This document shows positions 1 to 62,150 of a stretch of DNA of 64,000 nt, piece after piece. The notes below the pieces were generated by a model that saw only the letters and a program-made list of their open reading frames with translations, was not told where the DNA came from and made no database searches. The position numbers were made by a program, and so were the translations under genes. Origin of the DNA: Spirochaetota bacterium (lineage in GTDB: Bacteria > Spirochaetota > Spirochaetia > CADAEX01); the NCBI GenBank assembly GCA_009786125.1, contig WQTU01000136.1:88-64087 (forward strand), read 5' to 3'. Position 1 is the first letter of the stretch, and each line of letters begins with the position of its first letter.

Positions 1-1
1 C

Positions 2-598
2 GCCGGGGTTGCTCAGGCAACTTTTACAATGTACGGCGGCACCATATCAAACAATACTGTACGGGGTAACTCGATCGCATGGGGCGGCGGGGTAAATGGA
101 ATAACCACCATGCACGGCGGCACTATATCTGGTAATACTGCCTATGCCCACAATACAACAAGTAGTGTTGTTGTTGAAGCACGCGGCGGCGGGGTAAACG
201 GAGCCCTTACTATGCATGGGGGCGCCATATCGGGTAATCATGTCAGAGGCGGCACTACAAGTGGAACTGGTATTGAAGTTACCTCTCACGGCGGTGGTAT
301 GCATGGAGTTCTTACCATGCACGGCGGCACCATATCCGGTAATACTGTCTCTGCCAGCGCAGGTAATATAAGCAACAACCTTACTCTAAGAGGGGGTGGG
401 GTGTCTGTTTTATCCCCAATCGCCTTTACCAAAACTGGCGGAACCATTAATGGCAATGACGGAGGCTCTCCAAATACTGTTATTGGCTCCGGCGCTCAGG
501 GGCATGCTGTGTTCGAATTCGGTTTGAACGCTAGATGGAGAAATGCCACTGCTGGACCTGCAATGAACTCCGACACACCCGGTTTCTGGGAAAACTGA
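2..598 (+). CDS. C-terminal part of a Gly-rich beta-helix repeat protein (Pmp/PATR-like surface protein); 5' end outside window
   Basis: Frame 2 is open from nt 2 (AGVAQATFT precedes the first Met at 29). At least five iterations of '..GGGVNG.LTMHGGTISGNT..'. Stop at 596-598. Confidence 0.6.
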   Translation, partial: AGVAQATFTMYGGTISNNTVRGNSIAWGGGVNGITTMHGGTISGNTAYAHNTTSSVVVEARGGGVNGALTMHGGAISGNHVRGGTTSGTGIEVTSHGGGMHGVLTMHGGTISGNTVSASAGNISNNLTLRGGGVSVLSPIAFTKTGGTINGNDGGSPNTVIGSGAQGHAVFEFGLNARWRNATAGPAMNSDTPGFWEN

Positions 599-3800: not shown

Positions 3801-5972
3801 ATGAGTAATATAGAAAAGAACAAGTTCTTTCCGGATTTAAAAGAACACGCAAGCGAGGGCAGCAAGCCTTTCCCGTATGGAGAATTCGCGGAAATACGGA
3901 ATCAGCAAACAGGGGTGCGATACAGAAACTCCAGGCAGCTTAAAAGCGAAGAAATCGAAATACTTAAACAAAACTTGTGCGAAGCAGATGACTGGTCTTT
4001 AATATCTGTTACAGATCCATTTGATCCTTTGTTAATAAAAAGAACTGTTTTTAAGGGCATTGTCCGCATCGGGCGCTTGGAGAAAGGCATTATAAAGGAT
4101 AAGGACAGGGAATGCTGCTGCGGAATTTCAGACAGCTTTATAATATCATCAGACATAGGAGATTACTGCGCTATTCATAACAACAGATATATTTCTGCTG
4201 TTATTGCAGGTAACTATGTTATTTTATCGGACAATAACGAAATATATACTACAGAAGATGCAAAGTTCGGTAACTGTATTTTAAAAGAAGGCGAAGCTGC
4301 GGCAACTTTGCGAAAAATCAATCTTGTGAACGAAAAAGGGGGCAGAGCTATTTCTGCTTTTAGCGGCATTACAGGCGCAGATGTTTATCTCTGGGTAAAA
4401 CAGCGGGAATCAAAAGAATTTGTTTCGCGGCTGGAATCTTTTACTTGCAAAAGCTTTGATGCCAAAAGAGGTTATTACAGTTTTATCGATGACCATACTG
4501 TTATAAAAGGAACATCTTTAATAAGAAATATTATGACAGGAAGGAGCTGCAGAATAGAGAGAGCCACATGCGTTGATGATGTTACCATAAATTCTTCTGC
4601 TTTAAAGCCTGTATTGCTGGCTAATAACGTTGTTGTAAAAAAGGGAATTATTGGGGAAGGGTGTAGAATCGCAAATTCTTCTGTTGCAGAAGATTTTATT
4701 CTTGAGCCCGGAAGCTCGCTCGACAAGGGCGCGCGGTTTATCCACTCTTTTCTTGGAAGCTGTTCCAATGTTGCCTGCTGCGAAGTCATTAGCAGCTTTA
4801 TATATCCGTCTCACCAGCAGCATCATAACAACTCGTTTCTTATTGCATCTGTTGTAATGGGGCAGAGCAATATTGCAGCAGGTGCAACTTTGGGGTCGAA
4901 TCATAATAGTCGGGCAAATGACTGCGAAATGTGGGCAGGAAGGGGTTTCTGGCCGGGTCTTTGTTCTTCGATAAAGTTTAATTCTAAATTCGCGTCTTAT
5001 TGCCTTTTGGCTAAATCTGATTTTCCTTATGAGCTTAACATCTTTCTGCCTTTTGCTCTGGTAAATAACAATGTGTATGAGGACTCTCTTGAGATAATGC
5101 CTGCTTACTGGTGGCTTTATAATATGTATTCGCTGTTTCGCAACTACTTTAAATTCAAGGACAGGAGCCAAGGGCTGGATTCCATAAAAGGAGTTGAGTT
5201 TGATTTTATGGCGCCTGATACCGCAGAAGAGATTCTGTCTGCCATCTCTTTTATCGAAGATATTTGCAAATCAAATACCGGTGAAACTTCTTGCATTAAA
5301 ATCCCTGCGACCGGAATCGAAAATTCAAAGCGAAAAGTAAAGATTCTTTATCCTGATAAATCAAAAGCTGCTTATATGGAAATGCTTACCTTTTACTGCG
5401 GCAGTGTAATTTTTGAATTTATCGGGAAGTCCGGCGTTGCCTTAATCACTGCACAAATTTTGGAACATGAGCCAGCAGGTGTAAACAAAACTGCCGGGAA
5501 GTTGGATGATAACATCAGTCTAATTTTAAAAAGTAATTGCTCACAAGAAAGGGAGACGGAGTGGGTTAATGCGTGCGGCAGGCTGCTTCCGAAAAAATCT
5601 ATTGCAAATGCAGTAAAAGCTGTTCTGGGCGAAACAGAAACTGTTATTGAATCTTGGGAAGATATGCACGATTATTTTAATGAAGAGTTTGAATTGTATG
5701 AATCGAGAAAACTTTTTCATGCGCTCTCTATAGCTATGATGCTTTATAAAAAAGAAAAACCGGACCATGATCTTTTGAGTAACTTAAAAGCAGATTATGA
5801 AAAACTGCTTTTAAAAATCGAACAAGAGATAATCAAGAGCAGAAAAAAGGATTACGATGACCCTATAAGAAAAGCTCTTTTTTCAAATGAACAAGAAATG
5901 GAAAATGTGCTTGGGGTTTTGGAAAAAGATCCGGTTCTCGGCAGGTTTAAAGCGAAGTTTTCCCTGCGCTAG
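3801..5972 (+). CDS. Large conserved hypothetical protein, probably DUF4954-type (left-handed beta-helix-like)
   Basis: 723-aa ORF 18 nt after the SurA-like gene. 'LKSEEIEILKQNLCEADDWSLISV' and 'GSNHNSRANDCEMWAGRGFWPG' resemble DUF4954 as I recall it. Family assignment not verifiable here. Confidence 0.7.
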   Translation: MSNIEKNKFFPDLKEHASEGSKPFPYGEFAEIRNQQTGVRYRNSRQLKSEEIEILKQNLCEADDWSLISVTDPFDPLLIKRTVFKGIVRIGRLEKGIIKDKDRECCCGISDSFIISSDIGDYCAIHNNRYISAVIAGNYVILSDNNEIYTTEDAKFGNCILKEGEAAATLRKINLVNEKGGRAISAFSGITGADVYLWVKQRESKEFVSRLESFTCKSFDAKRGYYSFIDDHTVIKGTSLIRNIMTGRSCRIERATCVDDVTINSSALKPVLLANNVVVKKGIIGEGCRIANSSVAEDFILEPGSSLDKGARFIHSFLGSCSNVACCEVISSFIYPSHQQHHNNSFLIASVVMGQSNIAAGATLGSNHNSRANDCEMWAGRGFWPGLCSSIKFNSKFASYCLLAKSDFPYELNIFLPFALVNNNVYEDSLEIMPAYWWLYNMYSLFRNYFKFKDRSQGLDSIKGVEFDFMAPDTAEEILSAISFIEDICKSNTGETSCIKIPATGIENSKRKVKILYPDKSKAAYMEMLTFYCGSVIFEFIGKSGVALITAQILEHEPAGVNKTAGKLDDNISLILKSNCSQERETEWVNACGRLLPKKSIANAVKAVLGETETVIESWEDMHDYFNEEFELYESRKLFHALSIAMMLYKKEKPDHDLLSNLKADYEKLLLKIEQEIIKSRKKDYDDPIRKALFSNEQEMENVLGVLEKDPVLGRFKAKFSLR

Positions 5973-5974
5973 AT

Positions 5975-6062
5975 TGCGCCCCGCAACAAGTCCGGGATAA
6001 TAACATCCGTGTCGCGGCGCAGGACGCGGCCTGCTTCGCAATGCCGCAGATCCCGGGAGTTT
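5975..6062. repeat. GC-rich repeat module (family member E1)
   Basis: Starts 3 nt after the stop codon. 6023-6049 (GACGCGGCCTGCTTCGCAATGCCGCAG) matches 23597-23623 at 24 of 27 positions. 6004-6030 resembles the 22562/60434 module. Confidence 0.75.
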
Positions 6063-6166: not shown

Positions 6167-6913
6167 ATGAAGTATAGAGATGTTTTTACAATTAATTCTT
6201 TTGATGTTGGCACAACAGGTTTTGCAACGCCTGTAGTGCTTTGCGCAATAATGCAGGAAACAGCTTCCAGGCAATGCTCAGATCTTGGCATAAGCATTGC
6301 TGACCTTGCAAAACATAATTTGACATGGATGCTTGCAAGACAATATGTAAAGTTTTCAAACTATCCTGCATGGAGAAGTGTTGTAACATCAGAAACATGG
6401 CCAAGAAATAAAACAGGTATACGCGCTCTTCGTGACTTTATTTTAAAAGATGAAGAAGGGCGGGAACTTGCGAAATCAGTCACAAATTGGATGCTTATAG
6501 ATCTCAATACAAGAAGGCTGTGTAAGACCGACGAAATTCTGAATGATATTGCAATAACGGAAGAATCAATAATGCCCGAAGATTTTAAAATCAGAGTTGA
6601 GAAATTTGACGGAGAAAAAACTACTGCGATTTTTAGGGTAGGGGCTTATGATTTTGATATGAACGCGCATGTTACAAGTATGTGTTATATAAAATGGATT
6701 TTGAATACAGTTCCGCTTGAATTTCATAAAACACATTCTCTCTCGGAGCTTTCTGCAGAATATATCGAAGAAGTATCATCCGAAGTTGATATTGAATCTG
6801 TAGCATATAGGAAGGATAATATTTTTTACCATGAGCTTAAAAACATGGAAACAGAAAAAATTGTTTTTCGGGGTCAGACAGCGTGGCAGGCGCATACCAA
6901 TATTTTACACTGA
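6167..6913 (+). CDS. Acyl-ACP thioesterase
   Basis: 248 aa. The N-terminal hot-dog region 'FTINSFDVG..PVVLCAIMQETASRQC..LTWMLARQYVKF' is typical of the FatA/B-like family. Confidence 0.8.
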   Translation: MKYRDVFTINSFDVGTTGFATPVVLCAIMQETASRQCSDLGISIADLAKHNLTWMLARQYVKFSNYPAWRSVVTSETWPRNKTGIRALRDFILKDEEGRELAKSVTNWMLIDLNTRRLCKTDEILNDIAITEESIMPEDFKIRVEKFDGEKTTAIFRVGAYDFDMNAHVTSMCYIKWILNTVPLEFHKTHSLSELSAEYIEEVSSEVDIESVAYRKDNIFYHELKNMETEKIVFRGQTAWQAHTNILH

Positions 6914-21268: not shown

Positions 21269-22540
21269 ATGTATTTTTCAAGGCCAATGAATCTAGGCAT
21301 TATTGGTTGTCCGGGGGCGGATCATTTTACGAATGATATTGTTCACAATCTTAAGAGATATTACAGCCGCAAACACCAGCAGCATATTGATCTTATATCA
21401 AAAACGTATGGAATTGAAAAAAATGAGATCGAAAGAAAGATCAATTTATTAAAAGATATTCAAAATGCCAATCTTTGGGAAGATCTCAATAGATATCCGG
21501 ATATTGAAAAATATCGAGTCCCTGAGTTTAAAGTTCCTGTAAAATATACAAGATTTGCCAATGGCGAATACAAAGCAGATATAAAAAAATCTGTAAGAGG
21601 AATGGATGTTTACATTGTCCAGGATGTTGAAAATCATTATGGCATAGATATAAATGAGGACGGCAAAGAACATAAACTCTCTGTAAACGACCATGTTTTT
21701 ATGCTGTTTGCGACAATTGATGCAGTAATACAATCCGGAGCAAGCTTTGTATCTGTTGTTGTGCCTGCTTATCCGTATGCGCGCCAGCATAAACGCAAAG
21801 GAAGAGAAGCTCTTACAGCAGCTCTTTTTGGAAGAATAATCGAAAACATGGGAGTCGCCCGAATAATCACTCTAGATATACACTCCAAAGAAATAGAAAA
21901 CTGTTTTAACAAGTGCAGAATGGAAGATCTTCATGCATCATATCAGATAATAAAAATGCTTTTTAACTTTATTGATGTAGAGAAATCAAATTTAGTTATT
22001 GTTTCGCCTGACTCAGGAGCTGTTGAAAGAAACAAGTTTTTTGCTGATAACCTCAAAAAACCGCTTGCCATGCTTTACAAAGAAAGAGACTATTCCAAAA
22101 TTTCCAGCGATGCAAAAGCAAGCAATATTACAGAGATGAAGCTGCTGGGAGATGTAAAGGGAAAAACAGTTTTTATGGCAGACGATATGGTAGGGACCGG
22201 CGGAACAATGATTGAAGCAATGCGGCGTCTTCGGGAACTTGGCGCAGAAAAAATTATTTGCGCAATAAGCCTTCCGCTTTTTACAGGCAATGCTATTGAA
22301 AATTTTGATAAAGCTTACAGAGACGGTTACTTCGATAAAGTAATAGGAACAAATGCCGTGTATCATACAGATGCGCTTTACGCAAAAGAGTGGTATGTAA
22401 GCGCCCCGATATCAAACCTCTTTGCCCGTGTTATTTCAAGATTGCATCAGCAGAGAACTTTAACTCCATTGATTGACAACAGCGAAATAATTCAGCGCCT
22501 GTTAAGCGACCCTCAAATTACTTTTTCTTATGGCTTATAA
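21269..22540 (+). CDS. prs: Ribose-phosphate pyrophosphokinase (long form)
   Basis: 'RFANGEY', 'PAYPYARQHKR', 'ITLDIHS', and PRPP-binding loop 'MADDMVGTGGT'. Confidence 0.85.
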   Translation: MYFSRPMNLGIIGCPGADHFTNDIVHNLKRYYSRKHQQHIDLISKTYGIEKNEIERKINLLKDIQNANLWEDLNRYPDIEKYRVPEFKVPVKYTRFANGEYKADIKKSVRGMDVYIVQDVENHYGIDINEDGKEHKLSVNDHVFMLFATIDAVIQSGASFVSVVVPAYPYARQHKRKGREALTAALFGRIIENMGVARIITLDIHSKEIENCFNKCRMEDLHASYQIIKMLFNFIDVEKSNLVIVSPDSGAVERNKFFADNLKKPLAMLYKERDYSKISSDAKASNITEMKLLGDVKGKTVFMADDMVGTGGTMIEAMRRLRELGAEKIICAISLPLFTGNAIENFDKAYRDGYFDKVIGTNAVYHTDALYAKEWYVSAPISNLFARVISRLHQQRTLTPLIDNSEIIQRLLSDPQITFSYGL

Positions 22541-24077
22541 AGTTCTTCCCGGCGCTTCATTGCGACATCTCTGTCGCTGCGCCGGGCGCAACGTCCATGT
22601 TGCAGGCGTTGATATTGGAACCTCTTCGATAAAAGCCGGTATAATAGATAAAAAAGGAATTCTTGCATCGTACCGGAAAATTCGCTACGAAGAAATTGGC
22701 GGAGATATTTATAACTGGAAAACTGATTTTTGGGTTAATTCCCTTAAAAAAGCGCTAAAAGAGCTCCCGCTGCTCGAAAAAGCAGAAGCAGTTGTTTTTA
22801 GCGGAAGCGGCCCTTCTGTGATACCTATATGCCGGGACGGCAATTATATGGCCGAGTCTCTATTGTGGCTCGATAATAAAAAAACTGATATAGCCGATAA
22901 CATTTCTTTTTTTCTTCCCAAAATAGCCTGGTATAAAGAAAACAGAAAAGATATTTATGCGAATGTTTCTTGCTTTCTTACGCTATCCGGCTTTTTTCCC
23001 TATTTGCTGACAGGAGAATTAAAAGAACCGCTTCCGAATAAAGAATTTACTCCTTATATATGGACAGAAGATTCCATAAAAAAAGCAGGGCTTGAGCTTA
23101 CTCTTTTTCCGCAATTTGTATTTGCCGGGAATCTTGTGGGTTATGTCTCCGAAAAAAGCAGCAGGGAATTTTATTTGCGAAAAGGGATTCCTGTGTTTGC
23201 CGGAGCCAGCGATTACCTTATGGCTCTTTTGGGAACAGGCGCGCTTTTTGAAGGAGCTGTCTGCGATAGGGCAGGAACTTCAGAGGGTATTAATTATTGC
23301 ACAAAAAAAAATGTAAAAGCAGATACCCTTAGAATACTACCGCATATAATAGAAGATTTTTATAATGTTTCCGGAGTAATTGATTCTTCCGGAAAAAATT
23401 TTAGCTGGTTTAAAAAAATATCAGGACAGGAAGAAAAGTCTTATTCAGAACTTATTGGGGAAATATCTAAGGTTATACACAATGACGACTCGCTCTATTT
23501 TTTACCCAGCGCTCGCTTTGCACGTGCTTTGCACGTTTCGCGGCGCGCCAAGGCACTGCGTCCGTACTCACAAGGGGCACTTTGCCACTGCGCCGGGACG
23601 CAACCTGCTTCGCAATGCTGCAGTCCGGATCTGGGAAGAAATTCTTTGTGGAAGTATAACAACGGCGCATTCACAGGGCTTGAGGTAATGCCGGAAGCAG
23701 GTGCTGCTGTTTTAAAAGCAATTGGTTTTTCTGTATGCGAGGTTATAAGAATTATGGAATCACATTCTCTTGCTGTGGAAGAAATAAGGCTGTCCGGCGG
23801 ACAGGCGGAAATCCCTTTGTGGAACCAGGTAAAAGCAGATATGACAGGAAAAAAACTGCTTGCCCCAGAGGTAAAGGATAGCGAGCTTATAGGGTGTGCG
23901 TGCGTTGCATTTACAGGACTTGGCGTATACAACTCCCTGACGCAAGCATCGCAGGAAATGGTGCGTATAAAAGATGTCTATACGCCTGATGCAAAAGCTT
24001 ATTCCGGGTTCTGTAAGCTCTTTGAAGATTATTCTGATATTTTGCGCAAGTTTGAGCTTTTTGCAAATTCTTTGTAG
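22530..24077 (+). CDS. FGGY-family carbohydrate kinase carrying two in-frame GC-rich repeat insertions
   Basis: 'GVDIGTSSIKAGI' N-terminal motif and C-terminal 'RLSGGQAEIPLWNQVKADMTG'. Start at ATG 22530 or TTG 22560. Confidence 0.8.
   Translation: MAYKVLPGASLRHLCRCAGRNVHVAGVDIGTSSIKAGIIDKKGILASYRKIRYEEIGGDIYNWKTDFWVNSLKKALKELPLLEKAEAVVFSGSGPSVIPICRDGNYMAESLLWLDNKKTDIADNISFFLPKIAWYKENRKDIYANVSCFLTLSGFFPYLLTGELKEPLPNKEFTPYIWTEDSIKKAGLELTLFPQFVFAGNLVGYVSEKSSREFYLRKGIPVFAGASDYLMALLGTGALFEGAVCDRAGTSEGINYCTKKNVKADTLRILPHIIEDFYNVSGVIDSSGKNFSWFKKISGQEEKSYSELIGEISKVIHNDDSLYFLPSARFARALHVSRRAKALRPYSQGALCHCAGTQPASQCCSPDLGRNSLWKYNNGAFTGLEVMPEAGAAVLKAIGFSVCEVIRIMESHSLAVEEIRLSGGQAEIPLWNQVKADMTGKKLLAPEVKDSELIGCACVAFTGLGVYNSLTQASQEMVRIKDVYTPDAKAYSGFCKLFEDYSDILRKFELFANSL
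22562..22608. repeat. GC-rich repeat module (E3) inside the FGGY kinase N-terminus
   Basis: The 47-mer GCGACATCTCTGTCGCTGCGCCGGGCGCAACGTCCATGTTGCAGGCG matches the reverse complement of 60434-60480 at 41 of 47 positions, counted by hand. Confidence 0.85.
23508..23633. repeat. GC-rich mosaic repeat (E4) inserted in frame in the FGGY kinase
   Basis: 23512-23537 resembles the 3' module of 61775-61897 (TCGCTTTGC.CGTGCTTTGCACGT). 23597-23623 matches 6023-6049 at 24 of 27 positions. It encodes about 41 atypical Cys/Arg/Ala-rich residues. Confidence 0.8.
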
Positions 24078-24179
24078 TCGGTGATTGGCCCCGGACGAAC
24101 TCTGGAGTGAAAAAAGTAATTTTTGGATATGGAAAAAAATTACGCCAAAATATATATTTTAAAATATTATATAATCTTA

Positions 24180-24208
24180 TTGACAAAAATTTTCAAATTT
24201 GTTACTCT
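24180..24208 (+). promoter_or_regulatory. Candidate sigma70 promoter (TTGACA-17-TACTCT) ahead of tRNA-Thr/rpmG
   Basis: Hexamers and 17-nt spacing read from the sequence. The tRNA starts at 24247. Confidence 0.4.
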
Positions 24209-24246
24209 TTGCTCTCGTTCTCCGTTCGACTTGTCGGGACAGGTAT

Positions 24247-24319
24247 GCCCTTGTAGCTCAGTCGGTAGAGCACCTCCATGGTAAGGAGGGGGTCTCCGGT
24301 TCAAGTCCGGTCGAGGGCT
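24247..24319 (+). tRNA. tRNA-Thr (GGT)
   Basis: GCCCTTG acceptor, anticodon stem-loop CCTCC-ATGGTAA-GGAGG, T-loop TTCAAGT. Confidence 0.9.
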
Positions 24320-24374
24320 CAAAATTACGAAATACCGGTTTGCCGGTTAATCCATAAACTTAGGGGATTCTAGT

Positions 24375-24551
24375 ATGGCATCTAAAAAAAAGGGAAATGT
24401 AGAGCTTATTGCTCTGCAGTGTACTGAATGTAAAAGAAGAAACTATACAACTTCTAAAAATAGAAAAAATTCACAGGCAAAGTTTGAATTTAGTAAGTTT
24501 TGCAAGTTTGACAGAAAGCACACTGTGCATAAAGAAACCAAAATTAAATAA
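24375..24551 (+). CDS. rpmG: 50S ribosomal protein L33
   Basis: Hand translation gives [58 protein letters not shown] (58 aa), below the ORF-track cutoff. Classical position before secE. Confidence 0.9.
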
Positions 24552-24557
24552 AGTTTT

Positions 24558-24631
24558 AGGTCAGTAGCTCCAACGGCTAGAGCGTCGGTCTCCAAAACCG
24601 AATGTTGCAGGTTCGAATCCTGCCTGGCCTG
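24558..24631 (+). tRNA. tRNA-Trp (CCA)
   Basis: AGGTCAG acceptor, anticodon stem-loop TCGGT-CTCCAAA-ACCGA, T-loop TTCGAAT. Confidence 0.9.
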
Positions 24632-25486: not shown

Positions 25487-25509
25487 AAGATAAAATTATT
25501 TTTTATTTA

Positions 25510-25676
25510 CCGATGAAGCGAGAACCGCGGACAAGCGAAGCTTGCACATGGTCGAGCGAGGAGGTAAACAAAAGGTTCGCGTGAGCGTACCTCGCTGCAA
25601 GCAGCGGAATCCGCGCCAAAGGCGCGGTGGGCGCAGGGCAAGCCCTGCGGTCGCTTTGCACGTAATACCTTTTATT
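25510..25676. repeat. Full-length GC-rich repeat element (E5), intergenic nusG-rplK
   Basis: The 5' end CCGATGAAGCGAG, the middle GAGCGAGGAGGTAAACAAAAGGTTCGCG, and the 3' end GGTCGCTTTGCACGTAATACCTTTTAT are shared with 61775-61897 and partly with 52216-52282 and 36969-37212. Contains several perfect 7-bp hairpins. Confidence 0.85.
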
Positions 25677-36968: not shown

Positions 36969-37212
36969 ACGACGAACGAGGGTCGCGGGCAAGCAGAGCT
37001 TGCACATGACCGAGTGAGGAAGTGATTGAAAAGCTGAAAGGCTTTTTCTGTTCTCCGACGAAGCGAGGGTCGCGGGCAAACGAAGTTTGTACATCCGCCG
37101 AATAAGTGAGAGTCGCGGGCAGCTTGCTTGCACACAAAGTACCCCTTGCGGGTGTGATCGAACGATGAGGTGGACAAAGGGGCTATGCTCCTTGTGAATC
37201 GGGCTAGGAGGA
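36969..37212. repeat. Cluster of GC-rich repeat units (E7) directly after rpsG
   Basis: Two or three tandem units: CGACGAACGAGGGTCGCGGGCAAGCAGAGCTTGCACATGACCGAGTGAGGAAG (36970-37022), CGACGAAGCGAGGGTCGCGGGCAAACGAAGTTTGTACAT (37057-37095), and GAGAGTCGCGGGCAGCTTGCTTGCACA (37109-37135). Confidence 0.85.
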
Positions 37213-52206: not shown

Positions 52207-52215
52207 AGTTTATTT

Positions 52216-52282
52216 GCCGACGAAGCGAGGGATGTGTTAAACAAAAGGTTGCGAAAAAAGGTTACGAAGCATACCTTTTATA
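52216..52282. repeat. Short variant of the GC-rich repeat element (E8) after rplQ
   Basis: It keeps the 5' end GCCGACGAAGCGAGGG, the middle TAAACAAAAGGTTGCG and the 3' end CATACCTTTTAT of the 25510-25676 element. Most of the interior is missing. Confidence 0.75.
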
Positions 52283-52284
52283 TA

Positions 52285-52318
52285 TAAAAAAAGAGAGGTA
52301 AATACCTCTCTTTTTTTT
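52285..52318 (+). terminator. Rho-independent terminator of the ribosomal superoperon
   Basis: AGAGAGGT-AAAT-ACCTCTCT hairpin flanked by an A-run and T8. Confidence 0.8.
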
Positions 52319-52453
52319 GCTGATTTGCCGATAATTAATCAGTGTTATTTGCTGACTCCGGCTTTTGCCGGGATAAACTACTCCGCGAGAGTCGCAGGTA
52401 GTCATAGGTTAAAGACATCAATGGGTGTTTACAAGGAGATAAATAACCATTAA

Positions 52454-55366
52454 ATGACAATTATAAAAAAAGCTGCAATAAGTTTAGTTATTACTCTGAT
52501 CGTATTCTCAGCTTTCACAATAATATCTTTTTTTACTCTCTTTGATCTTATAGAATCAAGATTCTATAACAAAAAAGTGCTTACCGAAGTAGAAAACAGA
52601 ATTGAAAACATCATAATTGGGATAGAAGAATATAAAAATGATCGCATTGAAATACTTACTGCAGTTTCAAATGAAGCAGCCATAAGAAACAGTTTTCTTA
52701 TAAATCAAAGCAGAGAAGACATCTTTCAGAGAGAAAATATAATAAAATCCTTGATTGAGCGAAGAGTGGATTTTGATTTTATCAGAGTTATTGATGATGC
52801 CGGGAGAATCCACTACAGCAGCAATCCTATTGACCTGCAATCTGCTGACCCCACAAGAATATCTTATAGAATACTGGATGCGCAGTCTATTGAAAGATAT
52901 AGAGAAATTATCGAGCGCGCAGGTGATATCCCGGCCATTTTTTTTGACATTCAAGACCACAATCTGTTTGTAGCTTCTGTTTACAGCCATATAGGAATAA
53001 GAAGAGGCACAATTTTAGTATATCTTGCACCAAATGATTTAAGAAGTTTTCTTGCCCGAAAAAATGTTATTGAAAGAAATATTGTTATAAGGTATTTGGC
53101 TCATAATAAAATTGTTTTTAATATACTTGATGGCAACATCTCTATTCTGGAAGAACTAAAAGCTTATTGGACAGCCGGAGAAATAAGAAACCCTCATAAT
53201 CTCTATTCTGATGCTGCCGGAACTGCCTTTTCTGTTGTTACAAAAAGATGGGGCGATGGCTTTATAGGATATGTTATCCCCGATCATCTTATAAAAATTA
53301 ATGCTATTTATAAATATATTCTTCTCTTTTCGGTATTTTCAATTACATTTATACTTTCTTTCCTGCTGATGAATATAAGGCAGGATCAGGTAGTTGTTAT
53401 AGCTGACAGGGTAAAACGATTCCAGATAAATTTTCTTATTGAATATCTTGAAAATAAAAGCGAAGTCGAATGGAGAGTATGGAAAAAAGAACTGGAAAGC
53501 CGCAAAGAAGAATTACGCAGGGAATTTAAGAAAGGTATAAGAAGATTAGACGAAGATAAAGATAAGATTGTAAATGATCTTGTTGATAAAAGCTGGGACG
53601 AGATAATAAGCCTTCTCGCAGGACATCTGGAAAAAAAATCTGAAAGTAAAAATTTAGTTACAAATCTCCAGGTTGATAATATTGAAGAAATAATCAGAAA
53701 AATTATTGCAAGTGAAAATAATATACGAAGAAAAGATATCAATACTGTTTCAAGCCCGCAAGTTGTTGCACAAGTTGCCGAGGTCGCAGGCGCGGATGCG
53801 GAAGAAGAACTTGAGGAAATAGAGGAAGCGGATGAGGTCGCAGACGCGGTTGAGGAAGCAGAGGAACTCGAAGACGCGGACTTAGAAGAAATAGAGGAAG
53901 CGGAAGCGGTCGAAGTCGCAGTAGAAGAAGAGCTGGAAAGAATCGAAGAAGCTGCAAAAGTTTCAGTTAGGGAAGCAGACAAAGAATCTGCAACAGCAGA
54001 ACCTTTATTGGATGAAAATAAAAAATTCGAAGAGCTTATAACTACTTATAAAGATTATGGCGAAGAAATTGCAAACGCAAAAGAAATTCAAAATACTGTT
54101 GAAGAAATTGAAAGGACTATTGTTCCAATTACCGATGACCAAGATGAAGCAGATCTGAAAAAACTTACATCATTCAGAGATGGATTAGAAAACGATGATA
54201 CAAACATTCCTGAATTAATAGAAGAAGAACTTCTGGACGAAGAAGATATGGCAGATCTCGAAGATCTTGACATTGAAGAAGCAGAAATGCTGGAAGAAAA
54301 ATCAGTATATGAAAAAGTACCTAAAAAATATGTTTCTGAAACTGAAAAAATAGAAAACCTTGAAACAATAGGGGATTTTAAACCACTTGTTATAGACAGT
54401 GAATTCGAAGAGCTTGAAGTTCTTGAAAAAACTGAAGCAGATGAAGATGATGACGATAAAGCCAGAATAGTAGAATACATAAGAAATGACATAGTTGGTG
54501 TATATAAGCCGAATTATATGCCTGATTTTTTTTATTCCAGGAAAAAAACAGAAAAAAAAGAAGAAGATTTTGCAGGCGAAATTTCAGAGGAAAAAATCGA
54601 AACTTGCGGCAGCCCTAAAGCATCTTCTGCAAAACATCTTGAAACATTAAAAAAAGAAGGGCTTCTGGAAATATGGACAATAAAAGATGTTATTAAAATA
54701 ATAGAAGAAAAAAAAGAATCTCCTGTAATAGAAAAAGATGGAATTCTTAAAATAAGTGAAAATCTGTATAACGATGGCAATACTTCAAAAAATGCTGACG
54801 AAGATAACGAAATAGGTATTTCAGATATCTTTTTTGATGATGCAATAGATTTACCTGTCTTTTCAGATGCATCTGCAGATGCTCCTGTTGCTGACGAAAA
54901 ATATGCTGATATAAAAATTAGTGAAGAATATGGTTTCTATGCTGATATTTTCTATGATCACAATGAAAATAACCCTATTGAAATTATAAAAATTTTATTT
55001 GAAATAACAAAAAAAATGGGTTCTTCTTTCGGTGTTATATTAGTACAAAATGATAAAAAGTATTATCCGGAAGTATCTGTAGGGCTTTTTAACAAAGATT
55101 ACCCGGAACTACTTAGGATAAATAAAGATTCTTATCTTTTTAGAGAATTTCTTGCAGAGAGAAAAATTTTCTTTATAAAGACCGATATTACTGAACTAGA
55201 AGAGCTTAATACCAAATTTTCACCGAATGATCTTAAAAAAATCAATGGTCTTCTGTTTGCTCCAATGAGATATAAAGGAAAGCAAGCCTATTTTGTGGCT
55301 GCCCCGGACGCAAAAGACTTCTATCTGGATAGCGTTATACTAAAAGTTAAAAATTTCCAAAAATGA
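52454..55366 (+). CDS. Large membrane-anchored acidic protein: TM, extracytoplasmic domain, TM, Glu/Asp-rich region, and possible GAF-like C-terminus
   Basis: 970 aa. TM segments near aa 8-30 and ~285-305. Extreme acidic low-complexity region aa ~435-700. The C-terminal ~170 aa looks globular, and the GAF-like guess is weak. Confidence 0.75.
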   Translation: MTIIKKAAISLVITLIVFSAFTIISFFTLFDLIESRFYNKKVLTEVENRIENIIIGIEEYKNDRIEILTAVSNEAAIRNSFLINQSREDIFQRENIIKSLIERRVDFDFIRVIDDAGRIHYSSNPIDLQSADPTRISYRILDAQSIERYREIIERAGDIPAIFFDIQDHNLFVASVYSHIGIRRGTILVYLAPNDLRSFLARKNVIERNIVIRYLAHNKIVFNILDGNISILEELKAYWTAGEIRNPHNLYSDAAGTAFSVVTKRWGDGFIGYVIPDHLIKINAIYKYILLFSVFSITFILSFLLMNIRQDQVVVIADRVKRFQINFLIEYLENKSEVEWRVWKKELESRKEELRREFKKGIRRLDEDKDKIVNDLVDKSWDEIISLLAGHLEKKSESKNLVTNLQVDNIEEIIRKIIASENNIRRKDINTVSSPQVVAQVAEVAGADAEEELEEIEEADEVADAVEEAEELEDADLEEIEEAEAVEVAVEEELERIEEAAKVSVREADKESATAEPLLDENKKFEELITTYKDYGEEIANAKEIQNTVEEIERTIVPITDDQDEADLKKLTSFRDGLENDDTNIPELIEEELLDEEDMADLEDLDIEEAEMLEEKSVYEKVPKKYVSETEKIENLETIGDFKPLVIDSEFEELEVLEKTEADEDDDDKARIVEYIRNDIVGVYKPNYMPDFFYSRKKTEKKEEDFAGEISEEKIETCGSPKASSAKHLETLKKEGLLEIWTIKDVIKIIEEKKESPVIEKDGILKISENLYNDGNTSKNADEDNEIGISDIFFDDAIDLPVFSDASADAPVADEKYADIKISEEYGFYADIFYDHNENNPIEIIKILFEITKKMGSSFGVILVQNDKKYYPEVSVGLFNKDYPELLRINKDSYLFREFLAERKIFFIKTDITELEELNTKFSPNDLKKINGLLFAPMRYKGKQAYFVAAPDAKDFYLDSVILKVKNFQK
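53775..53950 (+). repeat. Imperfect tandem coding repeats (period ~72 nt) encoding EEIEEA(D/E)-type acidic units
   Basis: GAGGAAATAGAGGAAGCGGATGAGGTCGCAGACGCGG (53813-53849) versus GAAGAAATAGAGGAAGCGGAAGCGGTCGAAGTCGCAG (53885-53921). Confidence 0.7.
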
Positions 55367-58747: not shown

Positions 58748-61396
58748 TTATAGGTTACATTTTCCCGCAAGACTTGATGCAGTTTTTACAGCTTCAACGC
58801 CATCCTTCGAGTAAGCTGCGCCTATTGATTCTGCCCACTCTTTTGTAACAACTGCTCCGCCAACCATAAAGCTGGCTGTTATGCCTTCTTTTTTTGCAAG
58901 TTCAATAACTTCCGGCATTTTTACCATTGTTGTTGTCATAAGCGCAGAGAGCGCAATTATGTCCGGCTCAAACTCTTTTGCATTTTTTATAATCTCGTCT
59001 GCTGGTACAGATTTACCTAGGTCTTTTACATCAAAGCCATAATTGCGCAGCATGAGTATTACAATATTTTTTCCAATGTCGTGTATATCTCCCTCGACAG
59101 TTGCAAAAAGTATTTTGCCTTTTGCACCGGCATTCTTGTCTTCGAGTTTGGGCTCAAGGACAGTGAAGCCTTTTTTCATTGTCTCTGCGCTTGCAATGAG
59201 CTGCGGCAAAAAATACTTTTTCTTGTCGTAAAGCTCGCCCACATGCATAATTGCGGGAATCATTATTTTTTCGAGAATATCTTTTGGCGCTGTGTTGAGC
59301 TCAAGTGTTTTCTGCACATGAGTTATTATGTCATCGCGGTTGCCGGAAACAATGCAGTCGAAGACTGGGCTTGTTGCTGCGTTTGCACCAGCGCTTGCGT
59401 CTGCGTCTGCGGCTGTGTCTGCACTTGCGTCCGGGCTTGCGCCAGCGCCTTTCGCAGCAGGGTGGGGCATGGGCTGTATGCTGTTGGGCATAATGCCGGG
59501 GTCCGGGTTTGCCGAAGCAAATTTAAGATACGCCAGCGCATCAACATCTTTGCCGGTTAGCAGGTCGGATGCATGTTTTGCCCACATTAGCTCGATTTCT
59601 CCGGGATTTGCAATTACATGGGTCATTCCATACGCAGCAGCCATTGAAAGAAAAGCAGAGTTTATTCTTTTTCTCTCCGGCAGCCCGAAAGAAACATTAG
59701 AAAGCCCGGCTAACGAAGAAAAGCCGTTTTCTGCAGCCCATTTTATTGTTTTAAGTGTTTCCAGCGGAGCCTGCTGGTTCGATGAGACAGTCATAACAAG
59801 CCCGTCTATAATTATATCGTTTTTTGTAAAGCCCAGTTTTTCTGCCTCATTATAAACTTCTTTTATAATTTCGATTCTTCGTTCTGCTGTCTCGGGGAGT
59901 TCGTTGTCCGCAAGAGGCAGCAGAACGAACATTGCGCCGTATTTTGCCGCAACAGGCAGGAGTTTTTCGATTTTTTCTTTTTCCCCGGATATTGAATTTA
60001 TTAAAGCTCTTCCGGGATATTTTCTGAGAGCTGCTTCTACTACTTCTGGCGACGCAGAATCTATTACAAGCGGCAGTTTGCACCAAGGCGCAAGCATGTC
60101 GATTATTTTAATTACTGTATTTTTTTCGTTAATGCCGGGCATCCCTGCGTTTATGTCTAACATGCTTGCGCCGGAGGCTTCCTGTTCCATTGCCATTTTG
60201 CGTACCAGCGACAGTTTGCCCTCAAGCATTTCTGATTGAAGCCTTTTCTTGCCCGTAGGATTTATGCGCTCGCCGATAACCTGCAGCCCTGACTTTTTGT
60301 TTACGATAAGGGCTTCGGTTGCGCTCGAAAGTGCAACAATATCTTTGGCAAAAAAGCAGTTCTTCCTGGTTTTGACCTTGACTTCGCCGCGGGCTTCGGT
60401 TTGGGTTTGCGGAGCTGCGGCTTGGGGTAAAAGCGGCTGCAACACGGATGTTGCGCTCGGCGCAGCGACATGGATGTCGCAATAAGGCTCCGGTTTGTAT
60501 TGCGCAAGCTCTTTTGCAAGCAGTTTTATGTGCTGCGGAGTTGTGCCGCAGCAGCCGCCCATAAGATTGATTCCCGCGCTTGCAAAAGATTCTGCGAAGG
60601 ATGCAAATTCTTCCGGTCCCATTGGAAAAATGGTTTTGCCGGATTCTATTCTTGGCATTCCGGCATTTGGCTTTGCAACCAGAGGAACTTTCGAAATAGG
60701 TTTAAGACGTTCTATTATTTTTAGCATTTCTGCAGGGCCGGAAGAGCAATTGCAGCCAACAGCATCTGCTCCAAGGCTTTGAAGCGTTATTAGCGCAGCT
60801 TCCGGCGATGTTCCGTTAAGCGTTCTGCCTTCCGGCTCATAAGTCATTGTTACTATCGTAAAAGCATCAGTGAGTTCTTTAACGGCGATTAACGCTGCAC
60901 GCGCTTCCTGAATATCCATCTGCGTTTCTATTACAAAAAGATCGCAGCCGCCGTCCAGCAATCCTCTTGCCTGACGCTTAAACATTTTTACAGCATCTTC
61001 AAACCTGATTTCCCCAAAAGGCTCGATAAAATGCCCTATGGGTCCAATATCGCCTGCAACAAGCGTATTTTCTCCTCCTGCTTTTTTTGCCGCCTGCGCA
61101 AGAATCGAATTTATATTTTCTACATCGTCCCGGCCGTATAACGCAAGTTTATAAAAATTCGCCCCAAATGTGCATGTATAAATTATGTCCGACCCTACCT
61201 CGGAATAGCTTTTATAAATTGCCCTTTGGATTTCCTTGTTCTCGCTTGCCCATATTTCCGGGCACACTCCTGCGGGCATTCCTTTTTTCTGGAGTTCTGT
61301 TCCTGTTGCTCCGTCGAGCACAAGAATTTTGTTTTTAAGCAATTCCGAAATTACTTTTTTATCTGTCATATATTCCCTTCTTAGTTTATTAAACAA
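58748..61396 (-). CDS. metH: Cobalamin-dependent methionine synthase lacking the AdoMet activation domain
   Basis: 882 aa. Hcy-methyltransferase N-terminus ('LDGATGTEL', 'GGCCGTTP'), pterin-binding domain, and B12-binding domain ('GDIHDIGKNIV'). Two GC-rich low-complexity linkers. Confidence 0.92.
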   Translation of the reverse strand: MFNKLRREYMTDKKVISELLKNKILVLDGATGTELQKKGMPAGVCPEIWASENKEIQRAIYKSYSEVGSDIIYTCTFGANFYKLALYGRDDVENINSILAQAAKKAGGENTLVAGDIGPIGHFIEPFGEIRFEDAVKMFKRQARGLLDGGCDLFVIETQMDIQEARAALIAVKELTDAFTIVTMTYEPEGRTLNGTSPEAALITLQSLGADAVGCNCSSGPAEMLKIIERLKPISKVPLVAKPNAGMPRIESGKTIFPMGPEEFASFAESFASAGINLMGGCCGTTPQHIKLLAKELAQYKPEPYCDIHVAAPSATSVLQPLLPQAAAPQTQTEARGEVKVKTRKNCFFAKDIVALSSATEALIVNKKSGLQVIGERINPTGKKRLQSEMLEGKLSLVRKMAMEQEASGASMLDINAGMPGINEKNTVIKIIDMLAPWCKLPLVIDSASPEVVEAALRKYPGRALINSISGEKEKIEKLLPVAAKYGAMFVLLPLADNELPETAERRIEIIKEVYNEAEKLGFTKNDIIIDGLVMTVSSNQQAPLETLKTIKWAAENGFSSLAGLSNVSFGLPERKRINSAFLSMAAAYGMTHVIANPGEIELMWAKHASDLLTGKDVDALAYLKFASANPDPGIMPNSIQPMPHPAAKGAGASPDASADTAADADASAGANAATSPVFDCIVSGNRDDIITHVQKTLELNTAPKDILEKIMIPAIMHVGELYDKKKYFLPQLIASAETMKKGFTVLEPKLEDKNAGAKGKILFATVEGDIHDIGKNIVILMLRNYGFDVKDLGKSVPADEIIKNAKEFEPDIIALSALMTTTMVKMPEVIELAKKEGITASFMVGGAVVTKEWAESIGAAYSKDGVEAVKTASSLAGKCNL
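60434..60480. repeat. GC-rich repeat module inside the metH Hcy/pterin linker
   Basis: The reverse complement GCGACATCCATGTCGCTGCGCCGAGCGCAACATCCGTGTTGCAGCCG matches 22562-22608 at 41 of 47 positions. It is translated in a different frame from that copy. Confidence 0.85.
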
Positions 61397-62150
61397 TTCC
61401 TGTTAATGCAATAACTGATTTTTGCGGTATAAGCAAAAAGCTTTCTGTTATATTAACTTCTATTTTTTTCATTTCAAGCAAATTGTAAAAGATTTTTTGT
61501 GTTTCAAGCGATAGGTCTCCGTATCCGGGAGAAAATCTTTTGGAAAAAAGCTTTTCTGATTTTCTTATAAGCTCTTTGCTGTAAAGAGACATAATGTAAT
61601 CCAGCCCCCTGTCTGCAATTTCGCCTGCTGCTGCGTCAAGAACAACAGCTTTGGTCATGTTTTCCTTCTGTTCTTTCTCTATAAAATCCGCTATTTCTTT
61701 GCCGCATGTTATTCCCATCAGCAGAATTTTATTCGCTCCGGAGATGAATTTGCATAATGAGCTGCTTATTATTTCCGAATGAAGCGAGTGTCGCGACGTG
61801 CTTGCACGCTCGTGACCGAGCGAATGAGGAAACAAAGGGTCGCGCAGGGCTCTGCCTTGCGGTCGCTTTGCGCGTGCTTTGCACGTAATACCCTTTATCT
61901 CAATTTTTTCTGATGGGGCTGCCTGACTTGCAGCAGGATATATCAGAATTTTATCCTGATCCGCGACTTCAAAATTACTTTCCAGCATTACGCCTTTTAA
62001 GTTTACAAGAGAGGCTGTCTCATCAATCCATGCTACAATCTCTTTTCTGCTTGATTCAGCAAGTTCTGTTTCTTTTTGTCTATACCCCAGCCGAGAGAAA
62101 ATAACTCTATAATCTGGCTTGGGCAATATATTATTGATAAACCTGAGCAT
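61389..62150 (-). CDS. Stand-alone methionine synthase activation-domain protein with in-frame GC-rich element
   Basis: The C-terminal 'RFSPGYGDLSLETQKIFYNLL' is typical of Met_synt_B12. 8-nt overlap with metH. Carries a 41-codon foreign-looking insert. Confidence 0.8.
   Translation of the reverse strand: MLRFINNILPKPDYRVIFSRLGYRQKETELAESSRKEIVAWIDETASLVNLKGVMLESNFEVADQDKILIYPAASQAAPSEKIEIKGITCKARAKRPQGRALRDPLFPHSLGHERASTSRHSLHSEIISSSLCKFISGANKILLMGITCGKEIADFIEKEQKENMTKAVVLDAAAGEIADRGLDYIMSLYSKELIRKSEKLFSKRFSPGYGDLSLETQKIFYNLLEMKKIEVNITESFLLIPQKSVIALTGIV
61775..61897. repeat. GC-rich repeat element (E9), 123 nt, in frame within the activation-domain gene
   Basis: CCGAATGAAGCGAG...GGTCGCTTTGCGCGTGCTTTGCACGTAATACCCTTTAT. 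Both termini and the central AAACAAAGGGTCGCG are shared with 25510-25676. Confidence 0.85.

What the first reader, a model, noticed from the sequence alone, without database searches (positions are those of the whole stretch)
60434..60480. Repeat module embedded in the MetH Hcy/pterin inter-domain linker
This is the sister copy of the module at 22562-22608 (41 of 47 positions identical). It sits in a GC-rich linker (..CDIHVAAPSATSVLQPLLPQAAAPQTQTEARG..) between two conserved domains. That placement is consistent with insertions surviving only in structurally permissive sites.
Basis: seen in the sequence. Interest (0 to 1): 0.7.

Follow-up and report, generated by a model that had tools for sequence, protein, structure and literature searches.

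The report
Tiny hairpin repeat inserted into MetH
A 57-base, GC-rich double-hairpin repeat scattered through this spirochaete genome has landed in frame in the flexible linker of methionine synthase, adding 19 disordered residues, as the palindromic elements of Rickettsia do, and its hairpin loops resemble a known but unexplained RNA motif (TwoAYGGAY).

Summary
Each copy lies in the sense direction of its host gene but is read in a different frame, so the similarity is at the DNA level.

Compared with orthologues, both host genes carry exactly +57 nt: MetH in the Hcy-pterin linker, and an FGGY kinase after codon 6.

The 78.6 kb of this genome that I could reach holds five copies: two in genes and three between genes, two of which are decayed. 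Related copies occur on other low-GC metagenome contigs. About 114 kb (partly overlapping) fetched around the same two genes in relatives holds none.

The module is two hairpins 10 nt apart. Their stems show compensatory changes. It has no stop codon in any sense frame.

On the strand complementary to the mRNA the loops read AYGGAY (CANGGANG), the CsrA-type hairpin. Three of four full copies have Rfam TwoAYGGAY as best match, but below threshold.

AlphaFold gives pLDDT below 50 across the insertion.

Verdict: an RPE-like small repeat riding as a passenger in a permissive linker. How it moves is unknown. It is a new variant of a known kind and moderately interesting.

The parts
60437..60493 (-). 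Copy B of the 57-nt module (CCGG...GCAG on the - strand), the finding itself. It is translated as residues 293-311 of MetH (PEPYCDIHVAAPSATSVLQ).
   Evidence: 85% identical to copy A over 60 nt. Net +57 nt against the orthologous DNA in L035 and L037. Covariance model R1 scores 80.4 bits.
60465..60480 (-). Hairpin GCGAC-ATCCAT-GTCGC on the mRNA strand. On the + strand it reads GCGAC-AUGGAU-GUCGC.
   Evidence: Sequence. Stem pairing and covariation across 10 units. It aligns to the second AYGGAY hairpin of Rfam TwoAYGGAY.
60439..60454 (-). Hairpin GCAAC-ATCCGT-GTTGC on the mRNA strand. On the + strand it reads GCAAC-ACGGAU-GUUGC. It lies 10 nt from the other hairpin.
   Evidence: Sequence. The compensatory variant GCGGC/GCCGC occurs in copies C, D and F. 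It aligns to the first AYGGAY hairpin of TwoAYGGAY.
60350..60424 (-). Second, unrelated GC-rich insertion in the same linker: 25 codons, QAAAPQTQTEARGEVKVKTRKNCFF, replacing one ancestral codon.
   Evidence: Codon-level comparison with L035 and L037. No match in the window or in any fetched locus.
58748..61369 (-). Host gene: cobalamin-dependent methionine synthase (Hcy, pterin, B12 cap and B12-binding domains), 873 aa as called.
   Evidence: Pfam domains, matches to solved structures, orthologues. The identical protein was assembled in two independent samples.
22549..22605 (+). Copy A, the sister copy, inserted after codon 6 of an FGGY carbohydrate kinase (22530-24077). It is translated in a different frame as PGASLRHLCRCAGRNVHVA. 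One of its loops is mutated (AGAGAU on the complementary strand).
   Evidence: Orthologues are 459 aa and start MNDKVLAVDIGT; the window has 19 extra residues there. DNA comparison. R1 scores 78.7 bits.
5992..6049 (+). Copy E, a decayed intergenic copy. The 5' stem of one hairpin is lost and the loop of the other is expanded.
   Evidence: nhmmer E 3e-4, R1 27.5 bits and E 8.5e-8, sequence. It sits between ORFs that end at 5972 and start at 6167.

Best explanation
The module is one copy of a small, non-autonomous, GC-rich dispersed repeat of 57 bp. It consists of two 16-nt hairpins 10 nt apart plus a 13-nt arm, and it has spread in this spirochaete lineage. One copy landed in the codons for the Hcy-pterin linker of MetH. 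Its length is a multiple of three and it has no stop codon in any of its three sense frames, so it is simply read through and adds 19 residues to an already flexible, disordered linker. Copies survive only where they do no harm: an inter-domain linker, an N-terminal tail, and intergenic DNA. In MetH it is most likely a neutral passenger. Shown here: it is repeated, it is an insertion, it forms hairpins with compensatory changes, and the inserted peptide is predicted to be disordered. Inferred: that it is, or was, mobile, and that it is neutral. How it moves is unknown.
For: (1) It is a DNA-level repeat and not protein homology. The copies share 51 of 60 bases at E 5e-14 and are read in different frames. 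(2) Both genic copies are exactly +57 nt relative to orthologues. (3) Five copies lie in 78.6 kb of the same genome: A, B, C at L012:5451-5507, E, and F at L014:2138-2184. Two are genic and three intergenic. Two are decayed, as expected without local selection. (4) Related copies occur on other low-GC metagenome contigs: L021 has a full copy plus a solo hairpin, and L032 has a solo hairpin. (5) No copy was found in about 114 kb (partly overlapping) fetched around MetH and FGGY in relatives, so the spread is lineage-specific. (6) The hairpin stems pair in 100% of cells. Two pairs show compensatory changes (G-C to A-U and A-U to G-C, 5 cells). None of 500 shuffles reached the observed value. (7) There is no stop codon in any sense frame of copies A-D. 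(8) pLDDT is below 50 for residues 297-340, between confident domains. In solved MetH the linker is about 9 residues. (9) It is not an assembly artefact, because the identical MetH occurs in ENA ERZ27257345 and Logan SRR5247064. (10) There is precedent: Rickettsia palindromic elements insert in frame into metabolic genes (PMC10969869).
Against: I found no transposase, terminal inverted repeats or clear target-site duplication. Only about 3% of a typical genome could be examined, so copy number and orientation statistics are weak. No strain lacking the insertion was found, so recent mobility is not shown. The strict conservation of the loop sequence (GGA/TCC in 9 of 10 units) is more than a purely structural or selfish element needs. 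It points to recognition by some protein, which this explanation leaves unnamed.
Confidence: 0.65

Rival explanations
1. The module is a functional RNA element of the TwoAYGGAY / CsrA-binding type. Transcribed from the strand complementary to the MetH mRNA, it folds into two hairpins that present A(U/C)GGA(U/C) loops. These could bind a CsrA dimer, acting as a sponge or as local regulation. The copies inside genes would be by-products or antisense sources of such RNA.
For: On the complementary strand, 9 of 10 hairpin units read GCNNC-AYGGAY-GNNGC (one has G at the first Y). The conserved bases match CANGGANG and variation falls mostly at the two N positions. This matches the CsrA/RsmE consensus hairpin as I recall it from the literature. 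The two hairpins are 26 nt apart centre to centre. Rfam's best family for copies B, C and D is TwoAYGGAY, with both loops aligned at high posterior probability: 16.5, 28.1 and 26.1 bits. TwoAYGGAY was predicted to bind CsrA (PMC4333381). Treponema denticola has a CsrA homologue in a fliW-csrA cluster (PMC9481697). Copies C and F have the GGA strand in the sense of the flanking genes, and F lies roughly 75 nt upstream of a start codon.
Against: All scores are below the Rfam gathering score of 43 bits, and copy A does not hit the family at all. In MetH, FGGY, E and D the GGA strand is antisense to local transcription, which is 4 of 6 copies. No copy overlaps a Shine-Dalgarno site. The copies are not conserved at the orthologous sites of relatives, and two are decaying. 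CsrA was not found in the 78.6 kb available, so its presence in this organism is unverified.
Confidence: 0.2
2. The module is moved as single-stranded DNA by a tyrosine HUH transposase (REP/REPIN with a RAYT, or a minimal derivative of an IS200/IS605 element). Its two similar hairpins on one strand would be the recognised ends.
For: Two similar subterminal hairpins lie on the same strand. No target-site duplication or terminal inverted repeats are present. Stem covariation together with a conserved loop fits recognition of a folded single strand by a protein.
Against: There is no conserved 4-5 nt target next to the left end; the flanks read CTTC, CAAA and GCAG. The GTAG motif typical of REPs is absent.
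Confidence: 0.12
3. There is no element. The similarity arose by chance, by gene conversion between two loci, or by independent expansion of GC-rich linkers.
For: Linkers do vary in length among MetH orthologues: P0004 and P0009 have small extra segments at the same site.
Against: The match has E 5e-14. Five copies are present, three of them in non-coding DNA. The two genic copies are in different reading frames. Related copies occur on other contigs.
Confidence: 0.03

Closest known systems
Rickettsia palindromic elements (RPE)
   Same: Both are small palindromic dispersed repeats that insert in frame into unrelated housekeeping genes, are translated, and persist at structurally tolerant sites (PMC10969869).
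   Different: RPEs are about 100-150 bp, are reported from Rickettsia, and each family encodes a conserved peptide in one frame. This module is 57 bp, comes from a spirochaete, and its two genic copies are read in two different frames. I did not test sequence relatedness.
TwoAYGGAY RNA motif (Rfam RF01731; Weinberg et al. 2010)
   Same: Both have two neighbouring hairpins whose terminal loops carry AYGGAY, with the same ACAUGGAUGU core as the Psychromonas members. Both are present in many copies per genome.
   Different: Scores are 16.5-28.1 bits against a gathering score of 43. The stems are much shorter (5 bp against 10-15). The large closing P1 stem is missing. The spacer is 10 nt in place of 1. 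The taxon (a spirochaete) is new, and two copies sit inside genes on the opposite strand.
CsrA/RsmE binding hairpins (CsrB, RsmZ, hcnA leader)
   Same: Both have GGA in a hexaloop closed by C-G, matching CANGGANG, and occur in pairs at a spacing that a CsrA dimer could bridge. The consensus is from my own knowledge; the general description is in PMC4333381.
   Different: Here the motif is on the antisense strand in the genic copies, does not overlap ribosome-binding sites, and is not arranged as a multi-site sRNA. Binding is untested.
REP / REPIN elements with RAYT transposases
   Same: Both are short GC-rich imperfect palindromes, dispersed, doubled, and without target-site duplication.
   Different: REPs are extragenic and carry a conserved GTAG. 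Here two of five copies are inside genes, there is no GTAG, and no RAYT could be looked for genome-wide.

Membership tests
TwoAYGGAY (RF01731) | Two adjacent hairpins with AYGGAY in both terminal loops | tested here: met
   On the + strand, copy B reads GCAAC-ACGGAU-GUUGC and GCGAC-AUGGAU-GUCGC. Eight of 10 hairpin units fit AYGGAY exactly. L032 has AGGGAU and copy A's second hairpin has AGAGAU.
TwoAYGGAY (RF01731) | Covariance-model score at or above the Rfam gathering score (43 bits) | tested here: not met
   16.5 bits for copy B, 28.1 for copy C and 26.1 for copy D. Copy A gave no hit. Nothing was found in the window at gathering threshold except tRNAs.
TwoAYGGAY (RF01731) | P1 stem that closes the two hairpins, often about 24 bp | tested here: not met
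   cmscan marks the P1 columns as non-standard pairs. Only 3-6 bp could pair, partly from the flanks. Weinberg's supplement notes that some members have very small P1 stems.
Rickettsia palindromic elements | Palindromic repeat inserted in frame in protein-coding genes and read through | tested here: met
   +57 nt in both MetH and FGGY relative to orthologues, with the ORFs intact.
Rickettsia palindromic elements | About 100-150 bp, with a family-specific conserved peptide | tested here: not met
   The module is 57 bp and its two genic copies use different frames. Sequence similarity to RPE families was not tested.
REP / REPIN | Short GC-rich imperfect palindromes dispersed in many copies | tested here: met
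   Five copies in 78.6 kb, about 61-65% GC in a roughly 40% GC genome.
REP / REPIN | Extragenic location | tested here: not met
   Copies A and B are inside coding sequences.
REP / REPIN | A cognate RAYT (Y1 HUH transposase) in the genome | tested here: inconclusive
   tblastn with an approximate IS200 TnpA found nothing in 78.6 kb plus the related loci. The rest of the genome could not be reached.
MITE | Terminal inverted repeats and target-site duplication | tested here: not met
   The ends CCGGAGC... and ...GTTGCAG are not inverted repeats. The only repeat at the junctions is an ambiguous 3-nt CCG in MetH and GCAG in copy C.
CsrA binding site | GGA in a hairpin loop within CANGGANG, in pairs | tested here: met
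   Met on the strand complementary to the MetH mRNA. The consensus itself is taken from my own knowledge and from PMC4333381.
CsrA binding site | Lies on the regulated transcript, typically over the ribosome-binding site, and is bound by CsrA | tested here: not met
   The motif is antisense in MetH and FGGY. Copies C and F are in the sense direction but upstream of, not over, the ribosome-binding site. Binding cannot be tested with these tools.

The most novel reading that the evidence does not exclude
Compact TwoAYGGAY-type modules (two CsrA-style GGA hairpins) are a mobile DNA family in gut spirochaetes. The long-unexplained TwoAYGGAY motif would then be the recognisable core of a repeat element. 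Its copies, where transcribed on the GGA strand, would together titrate CsrA. Copies inside genes would be tolerated only in the orientation that puts UCC, not GGA, into the mRNA.
Probability: 0.15. Interest if true: 0.75.

Novelty: new variant of a known kind. Interest (0 to 1): 0.5.

Why it matters
This is a clear, datable case, outside Rickettsia, of a tiny palindromic repeat being absorbed into an essential enzyme without breaking it. It illustrates how inter-domain linkers and N-terminal tails take up selfish DNA and can grow.

The unexpected part is the loop signature. The same ACAUGGAUGU hairpin core defines the TwoAYGGAY motif, whose function has been open since 2010 and which was predicted to bind CsrA. 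If the link is real, it gives two concrete tests. One is orientation bias of the copies inside genes. The other is CsrA binding by the 57-nt RNA. Together they would show whether TwoAYGGAY-like sequences are mobile DNA, protein-binding RNA, or both.

Tried and rejected
(1) I scanned the GTDB representative genomes for the 21-nt core TGTCGCTGCGCCGNGCGCAAC. It gave 11 hits, all in high-GC unrelated taxa and matching only the core. These are chance hits, and the source genome is not in that collection.

(2) I searched a profile of the six-frame translations of four copies against 5.8 billion proteins to find other in-frame copies. Nothing reached E <= 10. The peptides are too short for this method.

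(3) A scan of viral contigs for the double-hairpin pattern gave 0 hits.

(4) A plasmid search by distant blastn gave only chance matches of 22-33 nt in alpha-proteobacteria.

(5) The neighbouring GC-rich 60330-60440 had no match in the window or in any locus. The idea that it is another family module is therefore unsupported, though it could not be tested genome-wide.

(6) tblastn for CsrA and IS200 TnpA in the available DNA found none. With so little of the genome sampled this says little.

(7) The three-hairpin reading, with a middle TGCGC/GCGCA stem, was rejected because copies C and D do not keep that stem.

(8) I considered whether the module is an intrinsic terminator. No T-run follows the hairpins on the mRNA strand in MetH.

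(9) The weak R1 hit at 23562-23623 (12.4 bits) lies inside the other repeat family and was not accepted.
Full report
OBSERVATION. The reverse complement of window 60434-60480 and the + strand of 22562-22608 agree at 41 of 47 positions. The similarity extends to 60 nt at 85%. It is the only significant match of the region inside the window, with blastn E 5.1e-14. No shuffle of the window gave a match with 3 or fewer mismatches. The copy at 60.4 kb lies in a gene on the - strand with Hcy S-methyltransferase, pterin-binding, B12-cap and B12-binding domains, which is cobalamin-dependent methionine synthase. The copy at 22.5 kb lies at the 5' end of an FGGY carbohydrate kinase gene on the + strand. 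Each copy is in the sense orientation of its host gene. They are translated in different frames, CDIHVAAPSATSVLQP versus LRHLCRCAGRNVHVAG. The resemblance is therefore a property of the DNA and not of the proteins.

IT IS AN INSERTION, EXACTLY 57 NT, IN BOTH GENES. The window's MetH is 873 aa where its relatives are about 800-830. In an alignment with 17 orthologues (58-82% identity), every one has a short linker (..YK-PVLP-KAKDI..) where the window has 48 residues. Codon by codon against the two closest loci fetched, relatives read AAA CCT ATT TTA CCA AAG GCC AAA GAT. The window reads AAA CCG [57 nt] CTT TTA CCC [75 nt in place of one codon] GCC AAA GAT. So the linker took two separate insertions. 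The first is the module (60437-60493). The second (60350-60424) is separated from it by the ancestral codons. It matches nothing in the window or in any fetched DNA.

The sister copy behaves the same way. FGGY orthologues are 459 aa and begin MNDKVLAVDIGT (ATG AAT GAT AAA GTT CTG GCT GTT GAT). The window has 19 extra residues, +57 nt, after the sixth codon. The exact junctions are ambiguous by 1-3 nt, and I see no convincing target-site duplication.

IT IS A DISPERSED FAMILY. The source contig is ENA ERZ27257345 k141_4582885. The identical MetH was also assembled from Logan SRR5247064, so this is not an assembly artefact. By fetching the flanks of the window I could read 78.6 kb of this genome. 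nhmmer and a covariance model built from four copies find five members in that stretch. These are:
- A (22549-22605) and B (60437-60493), both inside genes.
- C, at L012:5451-5507, which is intergenic and about 5.4 kb beyond the MetH gene, outside the window.
- E, at window 5992-6049, which is intergenic and decayed.
- F, at L014:2138-2184, which is intergenic and half decayed.

A scan of JGI metagenomes with a 19-base pattern returned three low-GC contigs that carry the family. L020 is the same species, identical to C. L021 has a full copy plus a solo hairpin inside a GC-rich intergenic block. L032 has a solo hairpin. The other 16 hits were chance matches in high-GC DNA. About 114 kb (partly overlapping) fetched around MetH and FGGY in relatives contain no copy. 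So the family spread after this lineage split from relatives whose MetH is about 80% identical.

ANATOMY. Written on the mRNA strand of MetH, the module has four parts:
- a 13-nt arm, CCGGNGYYTNATT;
- a first hairpin, GCGAC-ATCCAT-GTCGC;
- a 10-nt spacer;
- a second hairpin, GCAAC-ATCCGT-GTTGC, followed by AG.

Across 10 distinct hairpin units from all copies, the five stem pairs are standard pairs in 100% of cells. Two pairs show changes on both sides (GCAAC/GTTGC, GCGAC/GTCGC and GCGGC/GCCGC; 5 cells), and none of 500 shuffles reached the observed value. The substitutions between A and B fall almost entirely in the loops. A middle stem (TGCGC/GCGCA) seen in A and B is not kept in C and D, so I dropped it. 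None of the three sense frames of copies A-D contains a stop codon. One antisense frame usually does. With a length of 3 x 19, the module can be read through wherever it lands in this orientation.

THE LOOP SIGNATURE. On the complementary strand each hairpin reads GCNNC-AYGGAY-GNNGC. The conserved bases match CANGGANG, and variation falls mostly at the two N positions. A permissive Rfam scan returned TwoAYGGAY (RF01731) as the top family for copies B, C and D, always on that strand. Both loops aligned at high posterior probability, but the scores were only 16.5, 28.1 and 26.1 bits against a gathering score of 43. Copy A, which has one mutated loop, did not hit. TwoAYGGAY was described in 2010 as two hairpins with AYGGAY loops, usually closed by a long P1 stem, in the human gut, Clostridia and gamma-proteobacteria (PMC2864571 and its supplement). 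Its Psychromonas members are multi-copy, share the same ACAUGGAUGU core, and share similarity well beyond the motif. In 2015 it was predicted to bind CsrA (PMC4333381). Treponema denticola has a CsrA homologue in a fliW-csrA cluster (PMC9481697). So the module works like a stripped-down TwoAYGGAY core but fails the family's score threshold and lacks P1. I do not file it as a member.

WHAT IT DOES IN MetH. Solved MetH structures align to the query up to residue 305 and again from 357, which correspond to residues 344 and 354 in 8g3h. The natural linker is thus about 9 residues. An AlphaFold2 model built on the 18-sequence alignment has mean pLDDT 80.9 and pTM 0.80. Only two segments fall below pLDDT 50: residues 297-340, which correspond to the two insertions, and 626-665, the second linker. 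The inserted peptide is therefore predicted to be a floppy extension between two well-folded domains. In the FGGY kinase, the 3' end of the module supplies ..VHVAG before VDIGT. This mimics the displaced KVLA of the first strand and pushes the old N-terminus out as a tail. Both placements fit survival at permissive sites.

MECHANISM AND RIVALS. My best reading (0.65) is a small non-autonomous repeat that is a neutral passenger in MetH. The decayed copies E and F, the lack of conservation at orthologous sites, and the mixed orientation relative to transcription all argue against each copy being individually functional. (The GGA strand is sense in C and F and antisense in A, B, E and D.) How it moves is unknown. 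The absence of terminal inverted repeats and target duplications, plus two like hairpins on one strand, would suit a single-strand HUH transposase. But I see no conserved target, no GTAG, and no transposase in the DNA at hand.

The main rival (0.2, not exclusive) is that the GGA strand is a CsrA-binding RNA. The loop conservation is stronger than a purely structural element needs, which keeps this alive. But the genic copies are antisense, and none overlaps a ribosome-binding site. Chance or gene conversion is excluded by the intergenic copies.

LIMITS. I saw only about 3% of a typical spirochaete genome. A rate of one copy per roughly 16 kb would extrapolate to more than 100 copies, but that is inference. 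A peptide-profile search for other in-frame copies found nothing. I did not verify that this organism has CsrA. The CsrA consensus I quote rests partly on my own knowledge.

VERDICT. The object is a new, very small, RPE-like in-frame repeat in a spirochaete with a TwoAYGGAY/CsrA-like loop signature: a new variant of a known kind. Interest is moderate (0.5). It would rise if the link to TwoAYGGAY or CsrA proves real.

Noticed in passing
window 23509-23640, 25500-25675, 36970-37094, 61766-61898 (weaker: 52207-52416): A second, unrelated GC-rich repeat family of about 130-180 nt. Two copies are also in-frame insertions. One adds about 40 aa to the same FGGY kinase, and orthologues lack it. The other sits inside ORF 61389-62150, the MetH activation-domain-like protein. 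Other copies are intergenic, between nusG and rplK and as a tandem pair near 37.0 kb. This genome seems to absorb GC-rich repeats into genes often.
   Followed up: partly
window 60350-60424: A second insertion in the same MetH linker: 25 codons, QAAAPQTQTEARGEVKVKTRKNCFF, replacing one codon. It has no match in any DNA I could reach, and its origin is unexplained.
   Followed up: partly
window 59375-59494: The pterin-to-B12-cap linker of MetH is also GC-rich, low in complexity (AAKGAGASPDASADTAADADASAGANAATS) and predicted to be disordered. This linker varies in length in all orthologues.
   Followed up: no
L021:5354-5640: In another low-GC metagenome contig the module sits in a roughly 290-nt GC-rich intergenic block made of several different short repeats. 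For example, CTTTATCGCACGCTTCGCAGTCC occurs twice. This suggests composite arrays of small elements.
   Followed up: no
L014:2138-2184 (about 5.1 kb upstream of the window start): The half-decayed copy F keeps one GGA hairpin in the sense orientation, roughly 75 nt upstream of the start codon of a flavodiiron/rubredoxin-type gene. This is the only copy placed like a possible leader element.
   Followed up: no
window 24078-24600 compared with L038, L039 and L040: Relatives carry a PAS/HATPase sensor kinase gene (about 770-820 aa) between the FGGY kinase and rpmG-secE-nusG. The window genome has only tRNA genes there.
   Followed up: no
window 53759-53930: Degenerate tandem repeats (periods of 12-54 nt) that encode an acidic E/A/D-rich stretch inside the large TP_0593_N-domain protein gene.
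   Followed up: no
window 1-355: About 102-nt repeats at the window start, encoding repeated GGG..TMHGGTISGNT units of a surface-protein-like gene cut by the window edge.
   Followed up: no
window about 58000: Cumulative GC skew rises steadily from 14 kb to 58 kb and then flattens or reverses. This coincides with the switch from + strand to - strand genes at the MetH locus.
   Followed up: no
Supplement of PMC2864571 (TwoAYGGAY.sto, Psychromonas ingrahamii NC_008709): The five Psychromonas TwoAYGGAY loci shown share extended similarity far beyond the motif, over hundreds of nt of flanks. That fits the published motif itself sitting inside a larger repeated element.
   Followed up: partly
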